DNA from: Sphyrna mokarran
Taxonomy: Eukaryota
Length of the DNA: 64,000 bases
NCBI GenBank assembly: GCA_024679065.1
Contig: JAGIQG010000010.1
Location: forward strand, 37,882,001-37,946,000
Direction of reading: 5' to 3'
Position numbers and translations under genes: made by a program. Below the pieces are notes generated by a model that did not search any database, was not told where the DNA came from, and saw nothing but the letters and a program-made list of their open reading frames with translations. This document shows positions 3,540 to 63,190 of this stretch, in pieces (the stretch's first letter is position 1; each line of letters begins with the position of its first letter).

Positions 3540-3832
3540 TAGGATGGCACTGTGGTTAGCACTGCTGTCTCACAGCCCAAGGGACCTGGCTTGGATTTCC
3601 GGCTTGGGTCACTGTTTGTGCAGAGTCTGCACATTCTCCCCATGTCTGTGTGGGTTTCCTCCAAATTCTCTGATTTCCTTCCAGAATTTGAAAGATGTGC
3701 TGGTTAGGTGCATCGGCTATGCTATACTCTGTCTGTGTACAGGGACTGGAGTATATCAACTCTGAGATTTTCACAGTAACTTCATTGCAGTGTTAATGTA
3801 AGTGTACTTGTGGCTAATAAATAAACTTTATA
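3540..3832 (+). mobile_element. tRNA-derived V-SINE (HE1-like head, non-CR1 tail)
   Basis: A-box head ggcactgtggttagcactgctg, V-domain tctgcacattctccccatgtctgtgtgggtttcc, tail cagtaacttcattgcagtgttaatgtaag...aataaataaactt shared with copies at 17207 and 56165. Confidence 0.85.
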
Positions 3833-17206: not shown

Positions 17207-17478
17207 GGCAGCATGGTGGCATAGTGGTTAGCATTGCTGTCTCACAGTTCCAGGGACCTGGGCTCAATTTCCAGTTTGGGTCACTGTCTGTATGGACTTT
17301 GCACTTCTTCCCTGTGTCTGCATGGATTTCCTCCCCCAGTTTGGAAGATGTACTGGTTAGATGCATTAACCCAAACACATGCCAGAGTGTGCTAACTAGT
17401 GGGATTTCACAGTAATTTCATTGCATTGTTAATGTAAGCATTACTTGTGACTAATAAATAAACTTTATTTTTACTTTA
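17207..17478 (+). mobile_element. tRNA-derived V-SINE (same family as 3540)
   Basis: gggcagcatggtggcatagtggttagcattgctg head and shared tail. Confidence 0.88.
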
Positions 17479-17637: not shown

Positions 17638-17845
17638 TGATGTAGAGATGCCGATGTTGGACTGGGGTAAACACAATAAAAAGTCTCACAACTCGAGGTT
17701 AAAGTCCAACCAGTTTATTTGATAGTAAACCCCCAAGCTTTCAGAAATACTCCCTTCATCAGGTGTGTGGAAGATGTTTCCAAAAGCTTGTAGATTTACT
17801 ATCAAATAAACTGGTTGGACATTAACCTGGTATTGTAAGACCTTA
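17638..17845. mobile_element. Penelope-derived fold-back mini-element with hammerhead core on minus strand
   Basis: Inverted arms gtccaaccagtttatttgatagtaaa / tttactatcaaataaactggttggac; minus strand reads CTGATGAagggagtatttctGAAA. Confidence 0.75.
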
Positions 17846-19237: not shown

Positions 19238-19398
19238 TTTATATAATCCAGTCAGCTAAGGCAGAAAACTGAATGCTAGAAAAAAAAACTTGCATTTGTG
19301 TAAAACCTGTCACGGTCTCCGTTTGTCCTCACCATTTGACAATAAATGGAGTATTCTGGGAGTGTATTCATTGTTGTAATGTAAGGTGTTGCAGCAAG
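19238..19398 (+). repeat. 161-bp direct repeat, copy 1 (unique flank plus DeuSINE tail fragment)
   Basis: Apparently identical to 19846-20006. Confidence 0.95.
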
Positions 19399-19845
19399 GA
19401 AAATGTGCACAGCGAAGCTCTAAAAATACTTATATTTTAGAGTACAACTTAATAACTATCTCAGTATTCCATATTTTTTATCCTCCCAAGTCCTATTTCA
19501 CCTTGAGTAGCCTTGCTATTATGGTCACATACTGCTTTAAAACGTTTGACTTTGAGCTTGCATCGTTGGAGAATCTACTGAAAGGTGTTAGTTTCAATTT
19601 CTGGCATTTACAACCATTTTGTTTTTCTTTTAAGTGACTGTTGAAGTTCATCCATTATCTACTGGTCAAATGCCCTTGTTAAAATCTCCAATAATAATTA
19701 ATACCTGAAGAAAATGAGATACCACCGAGTTATCTCTCTCTGCCAAAGTGATTGATTGAAAGTAGCTAATTTTGCTAATGGGTTGAAATGACAAAACATA
19801 AGCTCCTTTGCCAAATGTAGTTCATATTTAAAAGGATGCAACAAC

Positions 19846-20006
19846 TTTATATAATCCAGTCAGCTAAGGCAGAAAACTGAATGCTAGAAAAAAAAACTTG
19901 CATTTGTGTAAAACCTGTCACGGTCTCCGTTTGTCCTCACCATTTGACAATAAATGGAGTATTCTGGGAGTGTATTCATTGTTGTAATGTAAGGTGTTGC
20001 AGCAAG
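19846..20006 (+). repeat. 161-bp direct repeat, copy 2, fused to the 5' end of a CR1
   Basis: Apparently identical to 19238-19398 and abuts CR1 at about 20008. Confidence 0.95.
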
Positions 20007-20007
20007 C

Positions 20008-20789
20008 AAAAAGTGTGAGGTAATGCACTTTGGCAGGAACAATAAATGTGTAGAGTATAGGGCTAATGGTAGGGCTCTTAATAGTGTTGAGGAACAGAAG
20101 GATCTTGGTGTATGTGTCAATAGATCCCTGAAAGTAGGCAGTCAAGTGGATAAAGTTGTTAAGAAGGCATATGGAGTCTTAGCTTTTATTGGTAGGGGGA
20201 TTGAATTTAGGAGCCGCAGCATCATGTTGCAACTGTACAAAACTCTAGTGCGGCCGCACTTGGAGTATTGTGTGCAGTTCTGGTCGCCACATTATAAGAA
20301 AGATGTGGAGGCATTGGAGAGGGTACAGAGGAGGTTTACCAGGATGTTGCCTGGTATGGAGGGCAGGTCCTATGAAGAGAGGTTGAAGGATTTGAGGTTG
20401 TTTTCGTTAGAAAGGAGGCGGCTAAGAGGGGATCTTATTGAAGCATATAAGATGATTAGAGGTTTAGATAGGGTGGACAGTGATAGCCTTTTTCCTAGGA
20501 TGGAGAAAGCTAGCACGAGGGGACACAGCTTTAAATTAAGGGGTATGAGTTATAGGACGGATATCAGAGGTAGGTTCTTTACTCAAAGAGTGATTAGGGA
20601 GTGGAATGCCCTGCCTGCAGCTGTTGTAGATGCGCCAAGTTTGGTGGCGTTTAAGAGGTTAGTTGATAAGTATATGGATGAGAAGGGAATGGTTTAGTTA
20701 GGAGGGGCATTGCTTTTTATTTTGGTCGGCACAACATCGAAGGCCGAAGGGCCTGTTCTGTGCTGTATTGTTCTATGTTCTATGTTCTA
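20008..20789 (+). mobile_element. Young 5'-truncated CR1 LINE
   Basis: Uninterrupted 224-aa ORF2 C-terminus (RPHLEYCVQFWSP, RFTRMLPG), 3' stem-loop ggccgaagggcc, (tgttcta)n tail. Confidence 0.97.
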
Positions 20790-27454: not shown

Positions 27455-27648
27455 ATGATGTGAAGATGCTGGTGTTGGACTGGAATGGGCATTACAATTA
27501 TTCACATGACACCAGGTTATCATCCAACAGATTTATTAGAAATCACCAGTTTTTGGAACACTGCTCCTTTGTCAGATAAAGAAACCTGATGAAGGAGCAG
27601 CGCTCTGAAAGCTGGTGATTTCAAATAAACCTGTTGGACCATAATTTG
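27455..27648. mobile_element. Penelope-derived fold-back mini-element with hammerhead core
   Basis: Inverted arms ccaacagatttattagaaatcaccag / ctggtgatttcaaataaacctgttgg; CTGATGAaggagcagcgctctGAAA near 27586-27610. Confidence 0.8.
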
Positions 27649-27857
27649 AACAAAAAACAAAGAAGAACAAAGAACAAAACAGCACGGGAAACAGGCCCTT
27701 TGGCCCAACGGGCTCACACTGCCACCTCGATGTTCCCACTTATACCCGTGATCCCTGTCTATGTTTATAGATCTATGGATTGAAACCAAATTTGAGACAA
27801 TTTAGGGAGAATTTGTTCTGCCAATTAGCCAAACAGCACATCTTTGGGATGTGGGAG
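27649..27857 (-). mobile_element. Short 5'-truncated copy of the SINE-tailed CR1
   Basis: Shares the diagnostic tail (gatccctgtctatgtttatagatctatg, ttgagacaatttaggg) with 51648 and 61815. Confidence 0.85.
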
Positions 27858-27899
27858 GTGTCATGTGACCAATCATTAATGATATAATGGCTAGATAAA

Positions 27900-31979: not shown

Positions 31980-34445
31980 GTTTTTTTTGTCCATTTGTGG
32001 GAACTGGACTTTTCTGGCAAGGCTAACATTTGCCCGTTCTTAATTATCCTTGATGGCCGGTCCACTCCTTCAATCATTATAATCCACGTATTGAAGTTGC
32101 TCCCATTGTGCTATTAGAGTACATAAAGTACATAGAACATTACAGCACAGAACAGGCCCTTCGGCCTTTGATGTTGTGCCGACCAATTAAGAAAAAGCAA
32201 TGACCCTCTAACCTAAACCATTCCCTTTTCGTCCATAAACTTATCCACTAATCTCTTAAACGCCACCAAACTTGGCGCATCTACAACTGCAGCAGGCAGG
32301 GCATTCCATACCCTTACCACCCTCTGGGTAAAGAACCTACCTCTGATATCCGTCCTATAACTACCCCCCCTTAATTTAAAGCTATGTCCCCTCGTGCTAG
32401 CTTTCTCCATCCTAGGAAAAAGGCTATCACTGTCCACCCTATCTAAACCTCTAATCATCTTATATGTTTCGATTAGGTCCCCTCTTAGCCGCCTCCTTTC
32501 TAACGAAAATAACCTCAAATCCCTCAGCCTCTCTTCATAAGACCTGCCCTCCGTACCAGGCAACATCCTGGTAAACCTCCTCTGTACCCTCTCCAATGCC
32601 TCCACATCTTTCTTATAATGTGGGGACCAGAACTGTACACAATACTCCAAGTGCGGCCGCACTAGAGTTTTGTACAGTTGCAACATGACGTTACGGCTCC
32701 GAAATTCAATCCCCCTACCAATAAAAGCTAAGACTCCGTATGCCTTCTTAACAACCTTATCGACTTGATTGCCAACTTTCAGGGATCTATGCACATATAC
32801 ACCAAGATCCCTCTTCTTCAACACTATTAAGAGTCCTACCATTAGCCCTATACTCTACACATTTGTTATTCCTGCCAAAGTGAATTACCTCACACTTTTC
32901 CTCATTGAACTCCATTTGCCACCTCTCGGCCCAGCTCTGCAACTTGTCCAAGTCTCTCTGCAAACTATAACACCCCTCTTCACTATCTACCACTCCACCG
33001 ACTTTAGTGTCATCTGCAAATTTACTAATCCATCCTTCAATACCCTCATCCAGATCATTTATAAAAATTACAAACAGCAGGGGCCCCAAAACAGACCCCT
33101 GAGGTACACCACTTGTCACCGAACTCCACGATGAATATCTCCCATCAACCACCACCCTCTGTCTTCTATCTGCTAGCCAATTCCTAATCCAATTAGCTAA
33201 ATCACCCTCTATCCCATACATCTGCATTTTCTGCAGAAGCCTTCCATGGGCCACCTTATCGAACGCCTTACTAAAGTTCATATATACCACATTAACTGCC
33301 TTACCCCCATCCACCTCTTTGGTCACTTTTTCAAAAAACTCAATAGGGTTAGTAAGGCACGACCTACCCTTCATAAAACCATGCTGACTATCCCCAATCA
33401 ATTCATTTCTCTCTAAATGACTATAAATCCTATCCCTAATAATTCTTTCCAAAACTTTGCCCACAACAGAAGTAAGACTCACCGGTCTACAATTCCCAGG
33501 AAAGTCTCTATTCCCCTTCTTGAACAATGGGACCACATTCGCTATCCTCCAGTATTCCGGCACTATACCCGTAACCAACGACGACCTGAAGATCAGAGCC
33601 AGAGGCCCTGCAATCGCCTCTCTCGCCTCCCAGAGAATCCTAGGGTAAATCCTGTCTGGCCCAGGGGACTTATCTAACATCAAACCCTCAAGAATTTTAG
33701 GTAGTGAGTGACAGGATTTTGATCCAATGGCAATGAAAAAGCTGTGATATATTTCCAAGTCAAAATGGTGTTTAACTCAGTGGGAAATTTGCAGGTGTCT
33801 AGGCAATAGAGCTTTCAAAATGCTATTGACATGTTGTTGTAATGTGTCTTGTATTTGGTACAGGCTGTAAACACAGTGTACTGGTGTTATAAAATACTTA
33901 AGGCAGTAAATGGGATGAATGACTTATGATTTGTATGGTATCCAGCTTCTTGAGAGCTGTTGGAGCTTCACTCCAGCAGGCAAGTGGGGAGTATTCTGTC
34001 ACAATCTGGACTTGTGCCTGTAGGTGATAGAAAGACTTTGGGGAGTTAGTAGATGAGGCATGTACCACAGAATATCCTGTCTCTGATCTGCTTTTTAAAT
34101 AGGTTCAATTAGATTTCTGATGAATGGTGATCTACAGGACATTCAAGGTGGGGGATTTAGTGATGGTAACGCTTTTGAATATCAAAGTGAGATGGTTCAA
34201 TTCTCTCTCGCTGGATGGATATTTCCAGGCACTGGCACTGATCTGCCCAGCCCAAATATTGTCCAAGTCTTTTGCTACATTCAGACACTGAGTACTTCAG
34301 CATGTGAGGAGTTGTGACTGGTACTTAAAATGGTGCAGTCATCAGTGGTTATTCCCACTTCTGACTTTATGATCATGGGAAGATCATTGATGAAGTCAGT
34401 GAAGTTGTAGCATGCTGCCCTGAGGAATTGCTGCAGAAATGGCCT
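31980..34445 (-). mobile_element. Second non-LTR family element split by a young CR1
   Basis: 3' tail at 31980-32117 continues at 33699; ORF 34281..34469 contains FINDLPMIIKSEVG.TDDCTI. Confidence 0.72.
32118..33698 (-). mobile_element. Young CR1 LINE, full RT domain with one frameshift
   Basis: ORFs 32787..33758 and 32213..32842 contain [39 protein letters not shown]; near-identical to 20008-20789. Confidence 0.97.
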
Positions 34446-36520: not shown

Positions 36521-37135
36521 GCTTGAACTCTGTGTGGAGAGAGGATCAATCAAGACATTTGAGAAGGAATTGAATTGTTATCTGGAAAGGGAGAATGTGC
36601 TGGGCTATGGGGAAACAATGTAGAGATACCGGCGTTGGATTGGGGTAAACACAGTAAGAAGTTTGACAACACCAGGTTTAAATCCAATCGATTTATTTGA
36701 TAGTAAACTCCAAGCTTTTGACTCTATGGTCTTCGTCAGGTGAATAAGGTGTTCTGGTCTCCAGCAGCACGCATACCAGCACAAACTGTTTACAGATTAC
36801 TGATTAGAATGCGAATCTTTACACCTAACCTGCTATCCAAGTCTTAAAGTGGCTAACAATGTGAGTGCAAGAAGCACTGAGCACAGGTTAAAGAGATGTG
36901 TATTGTATATTGGAGACACCTCATTCACCTGACGAAGACCATAGAGTTGAAAGCTTGCGAGTTTACTATCAAATAAATCGGTTGGATTTAAACCTGGTGT
37001 TGTCACACTTCTTACTATGGGGAAACAACAGGGAAGTGACACTCAGTAAATTGCCTCTTCAGGAAGCCAACGCAGATATGAAGGACTGAATAGGTTCCTT
37101 CTGTGCTGTAAGTATTCTATGACATTCTATTTCCT
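36520..37135 (+). mobile_element. CR1 3' end interrupted by a Penelope mini-element
   Basis: FEKELNCYL motif, gggctatggggaaa and 3' tail ccttctgtgctgtaagtattctatga. Confidence 0.65.
36619..37014. mobile_element. Penelope-derived fold-back element with two opposed hammerhead-like cores
   Basis: About 100-bp inverted arms; 14-bp TSD ctatggggaaacaa (36605-36618 and 37015-37028); CTGACGAagaccatagagttGAAA on the plus strand and a mutated mirror copy on the minus strand. Confidence 0.88.
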
Positions 37136-39034: not shown

Positions 39035-39224
39035 AGGCAAGGGCCTCATCCTGCTGTCATTGGTATTAGCCGTATGGCAGTGGGACTCCACCATGTTGAG
39101 AAGGCAACCAGAAAACATATGCAAGATTACAATTTTGCGTAGGTTTTCTAGTAGTCTTCTCCACATGGTGGAGCCCCACCCCCATAGGGCTAATACCAAT
39201 GGCAGCAGAATGAGGCCCTTGCCT
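39035..39224. repeat. 190-bp palindrome (94-bp arms, 2-nt spacer)
   Basis: Arms align without gaps, about 13 mismatches by manual count. Confidence 0.95.
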
Positions 39225-51647: not shown

Positions 51648-52243
51648 TAAAGAACAAAGAACAAAACAGCACGGGAAACAGGCCCTTTGGCCCAACGAGC
51701 CCGTGCCGCCACCTCAATGTCGCCACTTCTACCGATGATCCCTGTCTATGTTTATAGATCTATGCATTGAAACCAAATTTGAAACAATTTAGGCAGAATT
51801 TGTTCTGCCAATCAGCCTAACAGCACATCTTTGGTATGTGAGAGGAAATCGAAGCACCCAGAGAAAACCCACGCAAGCATGGGGAGAATGTGCAAACTCC
51901 CACAGACACAGGCCCAAATCCATGTATCTGCACAGCACAGCGATAGTCACTGAGCTGTCGTGTTGCCCATCAACTGTTCCAGGTCAAGCGTACAGTAACA
52001 ACATGAAGCACTAGGATACTCTCAAAAAATCCAAGAGCAGCCCTCTCACGACCTATCGCGTGTATGCCTCTTGTTAGACAACAAGGCGGACCAAAGTACC
52101 TGTAGGATAAAACAAATACATCAATATCATCGACAGTTTACACACTTCCTACGGACTCCCAAGGCTCACGATCCCTATTTTAAATCAGTTTTCTATATCC
52201 CTCCATTCCCATTCTGTTCATGTGCCCATCTAAGTATCTCTTA
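51648..52243 (-). mobile_element. SINE-tailed CR1 copy (ORF2 end, spacer, decayed HE1, tail)
   Basis: YLDGHMNRMGMEGYRKLI-stop followed by a UTR colinear with 61815-62402. Confidence 0.9.
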
Positions 52244-53974
52244 ACTAGGTATATTCTGCAGATCTGGCCCATCTCTCTGTTGCTTCGCTCCCCCTCCCCC
52301 CACAGTGAAGGGTTGGAGACATTCTTAGAGGCCCTAGGCAGCATGGAATGAGCACATTCGAAATTTAAATTTTGAGACAACTCCATCATAGGCTAGTACA
52401 TCAGGACTTTGGCAGGACTCTGCACATCTCCCAAAGCACAACACATCTGTGAGATCTAGAGACCAGAAGACTGGGTCATTTATCACCTTCATTTAATCCA
52501 TATCAATCGTTTTCTGGTTCTACTCCTATGAAGCACTTTTGGATGTTTCCCTAAGTTAAAGATGCTATATAAATGCAAGTTATTTCCAGTAGTGATATAA
52601 AAGCATCAAGTGGTTGATGGGTGTTACCTTACACTATGCAAGATCACTTACTAACTACATTGTGGACTTCTCCATATCAAATTTGTTAAATTCAGTGTGT
52701 TCCTACATCTCTGTTCTGATTTGTTATTCATATTATTTTGCCAGCAAAGGTGTCAGAATGGCCTGTGGCAGAGATCTGACTTTGCATCAAAGCAGTTGAC
52801 CTGTAAGGAATATTGAACCACGTGTACCAGCAGCAATTTCCTTCATCGTTGATTGGGCAAAAGTTTATTGGAGTGGATCTCACCACAGTCATTCTGGAAC
52901 CCATGTGATATTGATCCCATTGAAATCAAAGCCAAAAATTTAATTTCTCCTTTTCTAGCTGTCTACTTTTTTTTAAAACCATTTTCATAACCCTTGTATC
53001 TGCACACACAAATCCTTCTGCCATGATTGGCATGAAGCCACAAGAATTCTGGGTGTTCAGATAGACATAGGCCTATCCTTCTAGGCCAGATCATTACTTA
53101 ACTTCCCAATAAGCAAAATGTTCATCTGCCCAAGGCTGAAAGTCAGCTTTTCACCAAGTTCCCCATTAGAGACAACTGTAAGTTTTGAAATTAAGTACAT
53201 ATGTAAGACATAAGAGTGCTGTGACTCATAATACAGAGACATGGATCAGAATTTTACGTTGTACCATTATTCCAAAACCAGTTTTGAGATGTGGGATGTA
53301 AGTGTAAAATAGCATGGATGGGACAACATCCAGGATTCCGCTCGTTATGACCAGACACCATTTCATTGTGGGATGAATAGGGTCGTGGATAGGAAGTCTG
53401 GCCATGCCACAGTTAGGCCCATAAATAAATATTCAATGGCCTTTTCCCACCCAGTCTCAATTTTTCAACTGACAAGCATTTAATGATTGTGGGGAACAGA
53501 AAATGTCTCCATGCTCAATCTCAGATGAGAAGAGTGAGGGGTATTCCTGCATCAGAAGGTCTCTTCAAACTGGAGTGTATGCTTTCATTACAACCCAGAG
53601 ATTTCCAGCATTCCTCCAGATCCTCAAACCCTACACTCCCCATCCCATGACTCCTGATACCTCCCAGAACTGCCATTCCTGGGACTTTGTCTCAGGCACA
53701 TCACTGCCGTACCTCTTCCACACACACTGCAGTGCTGTGTCTGGATGAGCTGGAGATCTGTGGGCCAACCTAATTTTTAGTATTAAAAAAAGTTAATTAT
53801 TCAATGAATTAAGAGAAAACAAAAACCTGGCAAAAACATTAATTTATTTATTTATCAATGATATATACAGGCTGGCAAAAAATTGCACCTATGGAATATT
53901 AAGGGACTAACTGATTTGTGATTTCATAATAGTTGGGGTTGAAAATGGCCCAAACAGATCTTTTACAAATGATA

Positions 53975-55934: not shown

Positions 55935-58455
55935 AGGATTAGTCCCTTTAAAAGGTGTTGTCCGAGGGAAGAATTGTATCACTCACTAGTCCAAAGGTAT
56001 CAGGGACAGTGTTGGTCATTCATTAGGACATGTTGAGACTTGTCACAGCTGTGAAGAATTGCTCAAAAATTGAGAGGGCCTAGCTGTTATCCGTGCCTTC
56101 AAAAAATTCCATCAACATCTATATATGAGACATTTCATTTCAGTGATAGATGGGGGTTGTTCATATTTTATTTATTTTGTTTATTCAGTAATGTCACAAG
56201 TAGGCTTACATTGACACTGCAGTGAAGTTACTTTGAAATTCCTCTAGTCACCACACTCTGGCGCCTGTTTGGGTACACTGAGGAAGAATTTAGCATGGCC
56301 TATGCATCTAACTAGTATGTCTTTCGGATTCCAGAGGAAACCCATGCAGACATGGGGAGAATGTTCAAGCTTCAAACAGTGACTCAAGCCGGGAATCGAA
56401 CTGAAGTTTCTGGCACTGTGAAGCAATAGTGTCAAACAGGTGGTATCTCAACCATTAGACAAGAAGCTTTGGGTTTGAGTCCAAAGCCAGGACTTTGTTG
56501 GCCTTAGAAGAAGTATTCAACATGGTTCCATAGGCTGATGAAATCCTCCATTTCTTCAGTATTGCCCAGATGGTAAAAAAACAGTGAAGGTATAAGATGT
56601 GAAGATACACATAAGTGACAGACCACAAGCCATTTTGGGTTTACACTAGGAAGATAAGGTGATTCCAGTAATAGCTTCAGCCTCAAAATATCATTGGGTA
56701 TTGTTGTCATCAGCTTATGAGTATACCATTAACACTGCACGTGGACGCAAATAGCTAATGCAGATGCCCTGAATCATATTCCTTTGCCAGAGATGGTGTA
56801 TTCCTCTGCACTGCCAGGAAATATAAGAATGATGATGAATTTTATGGTCTCTTTGTCTTTTTCAGTTCAACAGATTAAGTACTGGACTAACAGAGACCCA
56901 TTGCTTTCAGAGATAAAACAGATGATATATGGGTGACAGAGAGACAGGTGCAGAGGAAATGAAGCCTTACCAGATCAGGAACAATGAGTTTCATTGTGAG
57001 GATATCATCCTCCAGGGATTGAGAGTGGTCATCTCCAGTCCAGGAAGAGTTATTACTGGAAGAGTTACACAGTTCTCATTTGAGTGTGTCTAAAATGAAG
57101 AAGATCACAAAAAGCTATGTGTAGTGGCCTGGCATTGGTACTGCAGTTGAAAGAATGGTAAAGCATTACCATCAGTGCCTGTTTCATCAGAAGCTATTTG
57201 CCACTGCTCCATTACATTCATGGGAATGACCAGGTCAACCATAAGTTAGGGTCCTTGTTGACCATGAGGGACTGTTTATGGGCACGATGTTTTTGTTATT
57301 GGTAGATGTCCAGTCAAAGTGGATGAAGGCATTTAAGATGAAAACCACAACTGCTATGCCACAGTTGAGAAGTTATGCTAGTGTTTTGCAATCGATGAGG
57401 TACCAGAAATCCTCAATTCAGACAATGGAATGGCTTTTACTGGTGCCGAATTTCAGAAGTTCATGACTTTTAATGTAATGAAACATCAGAATGGCACTGG
57501 ACCATCCTTCGTCGATAGACTGGCTGAGAGACTAGTTCGGATTTTCATTGTTGACTTGAAGGAGCAACAATTAGCATCTTTAAACACTGAGTTGCTGAGG
57601 TTCCTGCTACCGTATGGGATCACCTGCAGATGCCTACTAAAGGTTCTCTAGCTGAGCTGCTGAGGAGTCATCAGTTGAGGGCAAAGTTAAGCCTGGCAGC
57701 CCCAAACTTAGCAAGGAGGATGGAGACACACCAGAAAAGCCAGAAGAGGATCTACAATTCATCTAAAAGGGCAAGAGCACGTGAGATAGAAGATCCAGTA
57801 TTTGTGAAGAATTTCAGTAATGGAGCAAATTGGTTTGAAGAGCTGTTGTGACAAGAACAGGAACATTGTCCCATAGGGTTAAAGTACAGGACAAGATTTT
57901 AAAGAAATGTGTAACCTATTTGCATGGGCGAGAACTGTCCAAACAGCCAATGTTACTTCCTGATCCAAATGTGCCAGCAGGAATTATTGTGGGTTTCCTG
58001 ATGAGTGAATTGTCAGATCAGCCAGTAACAGGCTGATATTGCCCAGGAAACCGAGGAAGGTGAAACATCGGTACAAGAAGGGAATCTTTGTGAAATAAGG
58101 CCAACAGTAACTAACTCAATAGAAAAACCTCAGTCACTGGAGCTATATAATTCTATGAGAAAGACAAAGTCACCAGACAGACTGATTATTGATGGACTGA
58201 GTTAAAACTATTCATTTTCATTCATGTTTTGGAATTATAAATTTAATTATTCCACTGGAAAATAAGGGACTTAAAGGGGGAGGGATGTAATAGCTAACCA
58301 TTTTAAGGAGCAGTCTCTGAGGTTGGAGTCATGTGACCCAGCCACTCCGGGACAGAGCTGGAAAATCACTGGAACATGTTGGAACTCACCCCAGCAGTTG
58401 GATGCTGGAGCTGAGTATGAAAAAACTGTTTAAATCACTCTATAACTAGTTGTAA
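55935..58455 (+). mobile_element. Gypsy element B (RNase H, integrase, PPT, 3' LTR)
   Basis: EREGLAVI..KKFHQ, TDHKP, ADAL, MFLLLVDVQSKW; polypurine tract aaagggggaggga then LTR starting tgtaa at about 58286. Confidence 0.85.
56165..56435 (-). mobile_element. tRNA-derived V-SINE (same family as 3540)
   Basis: Reverse tail gtcacaagtaggcttacattgacactgcagtgaagttac. Confidence 0.85.
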
Positions 58456-61814: not shown

Positions 61815-62960
61815 CAAGAACAAAACAGCATGGGAAACAGGTCCTTCGGCTCAATGAGCCCACGCCGCCACCCTGATGTTCCCACCTCTACCCGTGATGC
61901 CTGTCTGTGTTTATAGATCTATGGATTAAAAACCGAATTTGAGACAATTTAGGGAGAATTTGTTTTGCCAATTAGCCTAAGAGCTCATCTTTGGGATGTG
62001 GGAGGAAACCAGAGCACCCGGAGAAAACCCATGCAAGCACGGGGAAAATGTGCAAACTCCCACAGGCACAGGCCCAAATCCATGTATCTGCACAGCACAG
62101 CGATAGTCACTGAGCTGTCGTGTTGCCCATCAAATGGTCCAGGTCAAGCGAACACTAACGACGTGAAGCACTAGATACTCTTGAAAAATCCAAGAGCAGC
62201 CCTCTCACGACCCATTGCATGTATGCCCCTTGTTAGACAACAAGGTGGATCGAAGCACCTGTGGGATAAAAACAAGTACATCAATATCATCATCTATTTA
62301 CACACTTCCCAGGGACTCCCAAGGCTCATGATCCCTATTTTAAATCAGTTTTCTATACCCCTCCATTCCCATTCTGTTCATGTGCCCATCTAAGTATTTC
62401 TTAAATAACTCCAGAGTACCTGCCTCCACCACTTTACTTGGCAGCGCATTCCATACCCCCACCACCTCTGTGTGAAAAAACTCCCTCTAGCATCCAAATT
62501 ATACCTTACCCCCCTCACCCTAAGCTCGTGACCCCTCGTGCTATTTGAGTCCATCCTAGGAAAAAGCTTAACCCTGTTTACTCTATCTATACCCCTCATA
62601 ATCTTGTACACCTCTATTAGATCTCCTCTAAGTCTACGTCTTTCTAAGGAAAACAGTCCCAATTTGCCTAATCTCTCCTCGTAACTCAGACCTTCCATAC
62701 CAGGCAGCATCCTGGTAAACCTCCTCTGCACTCTCTCCAGAGTCTCCACGTCTTTCCGGTAGTAAGGCGACCAGAACTGGACGCAGTATTCCAAATGAGG
62801 TCTAACCAACGTTTTATACAACTGCAACATTAAAGGCCAGCTCTTGTACTCTATACCCCTTCCTATAAAGGCTAGCATACTATATGCTTTCTTCACAACC
62901 TTCTCCACCTGCTCTGCCACCTTCAGAGACTTGTGCACCTGCACCCCCAGGTCTCTCTGC
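61815..62960 (-). mobile_element. SINE-tailed CR1 with ORF2 C-terminus
   Basis: ORF with RPHLEYCVQFWSP, RFTRMLPG contiguous with the same ~590-bp region as 51648-52243. Confidence 0.93.
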
Positions 62961-63190
62961 CTCTCAGCATCCATCTTGTCAAGTCCTCTCAGAACCTTAC
63001 ATGTTTCAATAAGATCACCTCTCATTCTTCTAAATTCCATGGAGTACAGGCTGAATTAGAAAACCTTTTGGTTAATAAGGGAGTGAAAGGCTATGAGGGG
63101 CTGGCTGGGAAGTGGAGTTAGATCAATAATGATATTATTGAATGGTAGAACAAGCTTGTTCTACCTGCCCCTAGTGTCAAGTTCTTATTT
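62960..63190. mobile_element. Two back-to-back older CR1 fragments (minus 62960-63055, plus 63055-63190)
   Basis: MEFRRMRGDLIET on the minus strand; KGVKGY and 3' UTR on the plus strand. Confidence 0.7.

What the first reader, a model, noticed from the sequence alone, without database searches (positions are those of the whole stretch)
61815..62960. CR1 LINE subfamily whose 3' end is a captured HE1 SINE (three insertions)
Seen: on the minus strand the CR1 ORF2 end (...YLDGHMNRMGMEGYRKLI-stop) is followed by about 200 nt of non-standard spacer and then an HE1-like SINE with a decayed head (gggcaacacgacagctcagtgactatc, no clear B box), the V-domain and a CR1-type stem-loop and microsatellite tail. 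The same LINE-spacer-SINE junctions occur at 51648-52243, and the tail alone at 27649-27857, each in unrelated flanks with a different 5' truncation. Known: HE1 SINEs carry a CR1 (HER1)-derived tail used for mobilisation. Inference: a LINE read through into a downstream SINE and adopted the SINE tail as its own RT recognition site, so the composite now retrotransposes as a unit, reversing the usual LINE-to-SINE tail donation.
Basis: partly seen in the sequence, partly recalled or inferred. Interest (0 to 1): 0.75.

Follow-up and report, generated by a model that had tools for sequence, protein, structure and literature searches.

The report
Shark CR1 carrying a dead SINE
A jumping gene of the CR1 type, apparently from a shark, copies itself with a broken piece of a smaller parasitic repeat built into its tail end; the composite is real, but whether the parasite supplied the copying signal is not shown.

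Summary
Three minus-strand copies (61816-62958, about 51650-52247, about 27650-27858) are 84-90% identical. They share one 3' end, have staggered 5' truncations and sit in unrelated flanks. They define a CR1 subfamily with a 525-nt 3' UTR: 211-nt spacer, weak tRNA-like head with a deletion, V-domain, 70 unassigned nt, then a stem-loop and (TGTTCTT)n. The inferred source UTR is not CpG-depleted (25 strict sites against 29 expected; window o/e 0.2), so the composite moved as one unit from an active source. The claim that the end is an HE1 tail is not shown. A profile of the window's LINE tails finds all 3 composite ends, a profile of its free SINE tails finds 0 of 3, and the closest ORF2 relatives carry this same tail type directly after their stop codon. 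Read-through has weak support: a possible relic of an older tail follows the stop (4-17 of 200 shuffles). A V-SINE family absent from this window could still have supplied the tail. The V-domain is much better kept than the head (95 of 111 against 21 of 39 columns). Verdict: new variant of a known kind; autonomy and database novelty were not testable.

The parts
62340..62958 (-). Copy A: 5'-truncated 3' end of CR1 ORF2 (164 open codons, one frameshift near 62466, 41 further codons, stop at 62340-62342)
   Evidence: 79% identical over 164 aa to P0168, which bears endonuclease and RT Pfam domains
62129..62339 (-). Copy A: 211-nt spacer of unknown origin, not CpG-depleted in the source; first 85 nt possibly a decayed older tail
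   Evidence: 11 strict CpG-type sites, 10.3 expected undepleted, 2.1 at window level; relic test, weak
62075..62128 (-). Copy A: degenerate tRNA-like SINE head with an 18-21 nt deletion where the B box would lie (box position recalled)
61950..62074 (-). Copy A: V-SINE central domain (name V recalled)
   Evidence: E 8e-16, 95 of 111 columns match the majority of free SINEs
61880..61949 (-). Copy A: 70-nt segment, not assignable to SINE or LINE
   Evidence: best 3 of 500 shuffles among 45 tests
61816..61879 (-). Copy A: terminal CR1-type double stem-loop and start of the TGTTCTT repeat; presumed ORF2 recognition site
   Evidence: function inferred from the stringent-LINE model (PMC3747384, passages)
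51650..52247 (-). Copy B: last 68 nt of ORF2 plus the complete 3' UTR
27650..27858 (-). Copy C: truncated inside the V-domain; 3' half of V, middle segment, stem-loop and longer repeat tail

Best explanation
This is a CR1 LINE subfamily whose RNA has an unusually long 3' UTR that carries a promoter-dead V-SINE as passenger. Copies arise by target-primed reverse transcription from the terminal stem-loop and TGTTCTT repeat and truncate at random 5' points (shown by anatomy; the enzymology is inferred). The terminal signal is of the type native to this ORF2 lineage (shown by similarity). Most likely origin (inferred): a source copy was transcribed past its own short tail into neighbouring DNA holding a V-SINE and a second tail of the same type. 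Reverse transcription began at the second tail, the first tail became redundant and decayed, and the extended element went on through many rounds. Whether the second tail belonged to the SINE (my estimate 0.35 overall) or to an adjacent CR1 stub (0.2) is open.
For: Unit mobility. Private differences in 183 three-way columns are A 15, B 12, C 6, and 24 of 61 A-B mismatches fall at CpG sites, as expected from independent decay after insertion. Source UTR not CpG-depleted: 25 strict sites (29 loose) against 29.3 expected. Tail type: LINE-tail profile built without the composite hits B 1e-9, C 6.5e-6, A 3e-5; 12-pair shared structure with 5 pairs changed on both sides; the read-through of relative P0003 is colinear with B's tail over 29 codons (E 1e-6). 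Short UTR is the normal state: 10 of 48 scorable protein hits show the stem-loop 16-29 codons after the anchor motif. Relic of a first tail: 5, 9, 17 and 4 of 200 shuffles with the two closest read-through relatives. Only one tail follows the V-domain, and head-to-tail length (313 nt plus the deletion) is like that of free SINEs.
Against: The relic is post hoc and weak: two more distant relatives gave 29-65 of 200, and the window profile and local tests were not significant. A spacer taken from ordinary methylated flank should start CpG-poor; its CpG content needs long residence in the mobile lineage or another source. None of 8 free SINEs has this tail. No full-length copy is in the window, so autonomy is unproven.
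Confidence: 0.55

Rival explanations
1. Insertion inside the UTR: a fragment (spacer, SINE head and V-domain) entered the short native UTR of a source CR1 by template switching or recombination, and the LINE kept its own terminal stem-loop. Nothing was donated by the SINE.
For: The tail is of the same type as that of the closest ORF2 relatives. A 7-nt direct repeat lies just after the stop and just before the tail in B (52176 and 51743). Precedent for a passenger V-SINE in another element: MER6 (PMC6887750).
Against: A plain SINE insertion would bring its own tail and no 211-nt leader. The 7-mer is one of 13 repeated 7-mers listed for B. The relic hint points to a full older tail upstream.
Confidence: 0.33
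2. First reader's version in full (a sub-case of the best explanation, not additive to it): the whole 313-nt segment is one V-SINE copy, of a family whose tail came from this LINE lineage, and the LINE now depends on that borrowed tail.
For: SINE-like length and a single tail. A different V-SINE family would explain a conserved V with a divergent head and middle. The middle segment is weakly similar to 3 of 8 free SINE middles (3-66 of 500 shuffles). The window shows two V-SINE tail types already, so tail exchange happened in this genome.
Against: SINE-tail profile finds 0 of 3 composite ends at E up to 5 (only 5 old training copies). The middle-segment signal does not survive 45 tests, and the profile test was null.
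Confidence: 0.35
3. The family is a non-autonomous derivative moved in trans, with only a 3' piece of ORF2.
For: The longest copy holds about 620 nt of ORF2; no intact ORF2 with this C-terminus was found.
Against: Copy A has no stop in 205 codons and one frameshift. Differences from the subfamily at 32.2 kb fall mostly on third positions (94 of 164 against 20 of 164 second positions), though this does not date selection to after the capture.
Confidence: 0.12
4. Segmental duplication or chance juxtaposition of separate insertions.
For: CR1 ends and V-SINEs are dense in the window.
Against: Flanks unrelated in 6 of 6 comparisons; identical junctions, spacer and deletion in A and B.
Confidence: 0.02

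Closest known systems
Elasmobranch CR1 LINEs (HER1-like; many shark CR1 consensuses in PMC13343379)
   Same: ORF2 C-terminus, 3' stem-loop with microsatellite, 5' truncation, no long target-site duplication.
   Different: 3' UTR of 525 nt against roughly 50-90 nt from ORF end to stem-loop in window LINEs and protein read-throughs; it contains a SINE. The published consensus 3' ends could not be seen (cells cut at 400 characters).
HE1 V-SINE of sharks and rays, partner LINE HER1 (PMC4824008 passage; PMC3747384 table)
   Same: tRNA-like head remnant, V-domain, CR1-type tail, similar length.
   Different: B-box region deleted, head about 54% like free copies, middle and tail unlike the free SINEs of the window, and it travels fused to ORF2. 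The HE1 sequence itself was not available.
MER6 MITE carrying a nearly full-length, head-less Ac1-like V-SINE (PMC6887750)
   Same: A promoter-dead V-SINE spread as passenger inside another mobile element.
   Different: MER6 is a non-autonomous DNA transposon; here the carrier is a LINE and the passenger lies next to the reverse-transcription signal.
Alu/LINE-1 chimeric insertions (bioRxiv 10.1101/2025.02.02.635956, passages)
   Same: SINE and LINE sequence joined in one retrotransposed product.
   Different: Those have the SINE 5' of a LINE 3' segment and, in the passages seen, are individual insertions; here the SINE is 3' of ORF2 and the fusion is a family.

Membership tests
CR1 clade LINE | ORF2 homologous to CR1 endonuclease-RT proteins | tested here: met
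   79% identity to P0168 (PF00078, PF14529, PF03372); 45-54% to bird and turtle CR1-type proteins. The fragment itself has no Pfam hit.
CR1 clade LINE | 3' stem-loop followed by a short tandem repeat | tested here: met
CR1 clade LINE | 5'-truncated dispersed copies with a common 3' end | tested here: met
   3 of 3 copies
CR1 clade LINE | Placement by RT-domain phylogeny; intact ORF1 and ORF2 (autonomy) | not testable with these tools
   No copy in the window reaches the RT core; no eukaryotic genome collection on hand.
V-SINE (HE1) | Central V-domain | tested here: met
   Match to a profile of the window's free SINEs, E 1e-16; that these carry the V-domain is recalled.
V-SINE (HE1) | tRNA-derived head with working A and B boxes | tested here: not met
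   Head remnant only; 18-21 nt deleted over the B-box region; box motifs recalled.
V-SINE (HE1) | HE1/HER1-type tail | tested here: inconclusive
   Unlike the free SINE tails of the window; the HE1 reference paper was not held.
V-SINE (HE1) | Independent retroposition as a short unit | tested here: not met
   2 of 3 copies are fused to ORF2; the third is truncated inside V; 0 copies begin at the head.

The most novel reading that the evidence does not exclude
An autonomous CR1 replaced its own recognition site with one borrowed from a V-SINE, and has since kept the V-domain under selection (about 86% like free SINEs) while the Pol III head (about 54%) and its first tail decayed. The V-domain would then act in cis on retrotransposition, and this LINE would be a natural reporter in which the unexplained conservation of SINE central domains can be tested by deletion.
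Probability: 0.2. Interest if true: 0.7.

Novelty: new variant of a known kind. Interest (0 to 1): 0.42.

Why it matters
Sequence usually flows from LINE to SINE tails. A LINE family that carries a SINE in its 3' UTR shows flow the other way and spreads V-domains without a Pol III promoter. Repeat annotation would count such copies as separate LINE and SINE insertions. Three copies in 64 kb suggest a high copy number if the window is typical (extrapolation only). If the V-domain proves to be selectively kept, the element gives a direct assay for the function of SINE central domains, which PMC4824008 (passage) and PMC6887750 treat as unresolved. If the tail is the LINE's own and V is a neutral passenger, it is a modest curiosity comparable to MER6.

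Tried and rejected
Spacer as coding sequence: a 55-codon open frame in B has no Pfam hit, no candidate among 30-97 aa proteins and no Atlas hit; A is frameshifted there. Splice-acceptor-like site in the spacer (62258-62271, 52099-52112): dropped, since the pattern has 72 matches in the window against 57 expected. Spacer in prokaryotic assemblies: 0 exact matches. Nine loci fetched by ORF2 similarity carry neither spacer nor V-domain; 1 of 9 (L007) has a related tail after a short UTR. Search for longer proteins with the 41-aa C-terminus: none (weak evidence). Rfam and tRNA scans: nothing meaningful. Middle 70 nt as a decayed second ORF2 end: not significant in 7 comparisons (best 28 of 500). 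Target-site duplications: none. A 67-column identical run between A and B over the head (P 0.011) is noted but post hoc. Published shark CR1 consensuses: only the first 400 characters are visible, so the empty motif search says nothing. The viral and metagenome contig collections were not searched, and no vertebrate genome, Dfam or Repbase was available, so copy number, autonomy and prior cataloguing remain unchecked.

Full report
Observation. All three places are as described. On the minus strand, copy A (61816-62958) has about 620 nt of CR1 ORF2, the stop at 62340-62342 and a 525-nt UTR. Copy B (about 51650-52247) starts 68 nt before the stop and copy C (about 27650-27858) starts inside the V-domain. 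A-B identity is 88.7% over 593 nt and A-C 88.4% over 190 nt. By segment, A-B identity is 65 of 68 (ORF2 end), 185 of 210 (spacer), 54 of 54 (head), 110 of 125 (V), 58 of 69 (middle) and 54 of 64 (tail). One-kb flanks share nothing in 6 of 6 comparisons and no target-site duplication beyond 4-5 nt was seen. That the host is a shark or ray is my inference from the repeat content.

The LINE part. The 164-codon frame has no stop and is followed by one frameshift and 41 more codons. It is 79% identical to P0168, a 966-aa protein with endonuclease and RT domains on a 3-kb contig of a bacterial assembly, presumably contamination. The short C-terminus looks native and not cut by the fusion: other CR1s of the window also stop a few codons after the same motif, and so do hits P0006 and P0008. 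In 10 of 48 scorable hits of the 41-aa search, the read-through reaches the stem-loop within 16-29 codons of the anchor motif; the other 38 end earlier or show no motif. A short UTR is therefore the normal state and the long one is derived.

The SINE part. A profile from 6 free SINEs of the window, built without the composite, matches A and B from the end of the head through the central domain (E 8e-16 and 1e-16). The head is recognisable in 3 of 6 pairwise tests but not by profile, and 18-21 nt are missing where free copies have the B-box region (box position recalled). A or B equals the majority of free copies in 95 of 111 V columns but 21 of 39 head columns (Fisher P 1e-4); free copies give 568 of 707 and 170 of 221. 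The comparison is rough: the majority is built from those copies, and taking A or B favours the composite. The asymmetry means either selection on V inside the LINE or capture of a different V-SINE family. The names HE1 and V come from PMC4824008 (passages) and PMC3747384 (table and passages); applying them to these sequences is recalled, since the Ogiwara papers were not seen.

Unit mobility. The UTR of the inferred source has 25 strict CpG-type sites (29 with loose counting) against 29.3 expected without depletion; the spacer alone has 11 against 10.3, where the window's level (o/e 0.2) predicts 2.1. A control pair of sibling ORF2 copies gave 14 against 24.1. Of 61 A-B mismatches, 24 fall at such sites. 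Three clear ancestral CpG columns of the V-domain keep CG in A or B, while free copies keep 1 of 21. This fits a CpG-rich active source whose copies decayed separately. With the common 3' end and staggered 5' ends it excludes segmental duplication and chance juxtaposition.

The tail. B's last 76 nt scored z 5.3-11.6 against 8 LINE ends and z -1.0 to 3.7 against 8 free SINE ends. A LINE-tail profile from 7 copies found B, C and A (E 1e-9, 6.5e-6, 3e-5); a SINE-tail profile from 5 copies found none of the three at E up to 5. The three composite tails and 6 LINE tails share a 12-pair structure, 5 pairs with changes on both sides; singly, only B folded better than all shuffles. The read-through of P0003, among the top three C-terminal hits, is colinear with B's tail over 29 codons and scores highest of 7 relatives tested. 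So the working end is the type native to this ORF2 lineage. This does not settle its route, because SINE tails are copied from partner LINEs (PMC5786205 and PMC5499810, passages). It does remove the window's own HE1-like SINEs as donors.

Origin. Two hints favour read-through. The first 85 nt after the stop align, anchored, to the tails of the two closest read-through relatives better than most shuffles (5, 9, 17, 4 of 200), but not to two more distant ones (65, 30, 39, 29 of 200); local and window-profile versions were not significant. Also, only one tail follows V, at a SINE-like distance. The middle 70 nt give weak scores against 3 of 8 SINE middles and little against 7 LINE ends, none surviving 45 tests. 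My estimates: read-through 0.55 (SINE's own tail 0.35, neighbouring CR1 stub 0.2), insertion inside the UTR 0.33, other 0.12. Separately, confidence that the composite is a retrotransposing family is about 0.95.

Comparison and novelty. The closest precedent seen is MER6, a MITE carrying a head-less V-SINE (PMC6887750: first part of the text, passages and an empty supplement search). Alu/L1 chimeras have the opposite order (bioRxiv 10.1101/2025.02.02.635956, passages). PMC13343379 (passages; supplement part 1 and searched rows) lists many shark CR1 consensuses, and its text has one mention each of UTR and SINE; the consensus 3' ends were cut from view and could contain this family. PMC1513397 and PMC8303610 (passages) added nothing specific. 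Ten literature searches showed no title or passage describing a CR1 with a V-SINE in its 3' UTR; the library lacks most subscription papers, Dfam and Repbase. That LINE lineages sometimes gain foreign 3' UTR sequence is recalled, not checked.

Verdict. A real composite CR1 subfamily and a new variant of a known kind. The reversed tail donation is possible but unproven. The best lead is the uneven preservation of the V-domain. Interest 0.42.

Noticed in passing
window 3545-3830 (+), 17207-17445 (+), 56150-56440 (-): Three free V-SINE-like copies share a tail without the CR1 stem-loop, ending in an A-rich repeat, unlike the other five free copies: two tail types on one head and V-domain.
   Followed up: partly
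window 20096-20781 (+) and 32127-33776 (-): Two 92% identical copies of another young CR1 subfamily with long open ORF2 frames; their C-terminus nearly equals protein P0216.
   Followed up: partly
window 62962-63170: Copy A's 5' end joins, in frame, an older CR1 piece on the same strand, which by eye abuts head-to-head an older CR1 3' piece on the plus strand ending in a 22-nt palindrome.
   Followed up: no
whole window: CR1-type 3' ends lie mostly on the minus strand, 13 of 16 among LINE-tail profile hits at E up to 0.015 with one SINE left out (P about 0.02 by my arithmetic), which might mean the window is an intron of a plus-strand gene.
   Followed up: no
window 27517-27644, 36650-37019, 39035-39224, 17672-17844: Palindromic or inverted-repeat elements, some of one family (D14); one begins directly after the 3' end of copy C.
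   Followed up: no
window 19238-19407 and 19846-20015: A 170-nt direct repeat, 99% identical and 608 nt apart, next to the 5' end of the CR1 at 20.0 kb.
   Followed up: no
L001-L007; protein P0168: Short contigs in named bacterial assemblies carry vertebrate-type CR1 ORF2, most likely contamination.
   Followed up: partly
window 62069-62135 and 51909-51975 (approximate): A 67-column run identical between copies A and B covers the degenerate head, though the rest differs at 11% (P 0.011, post hoc).
   Followed up: partly
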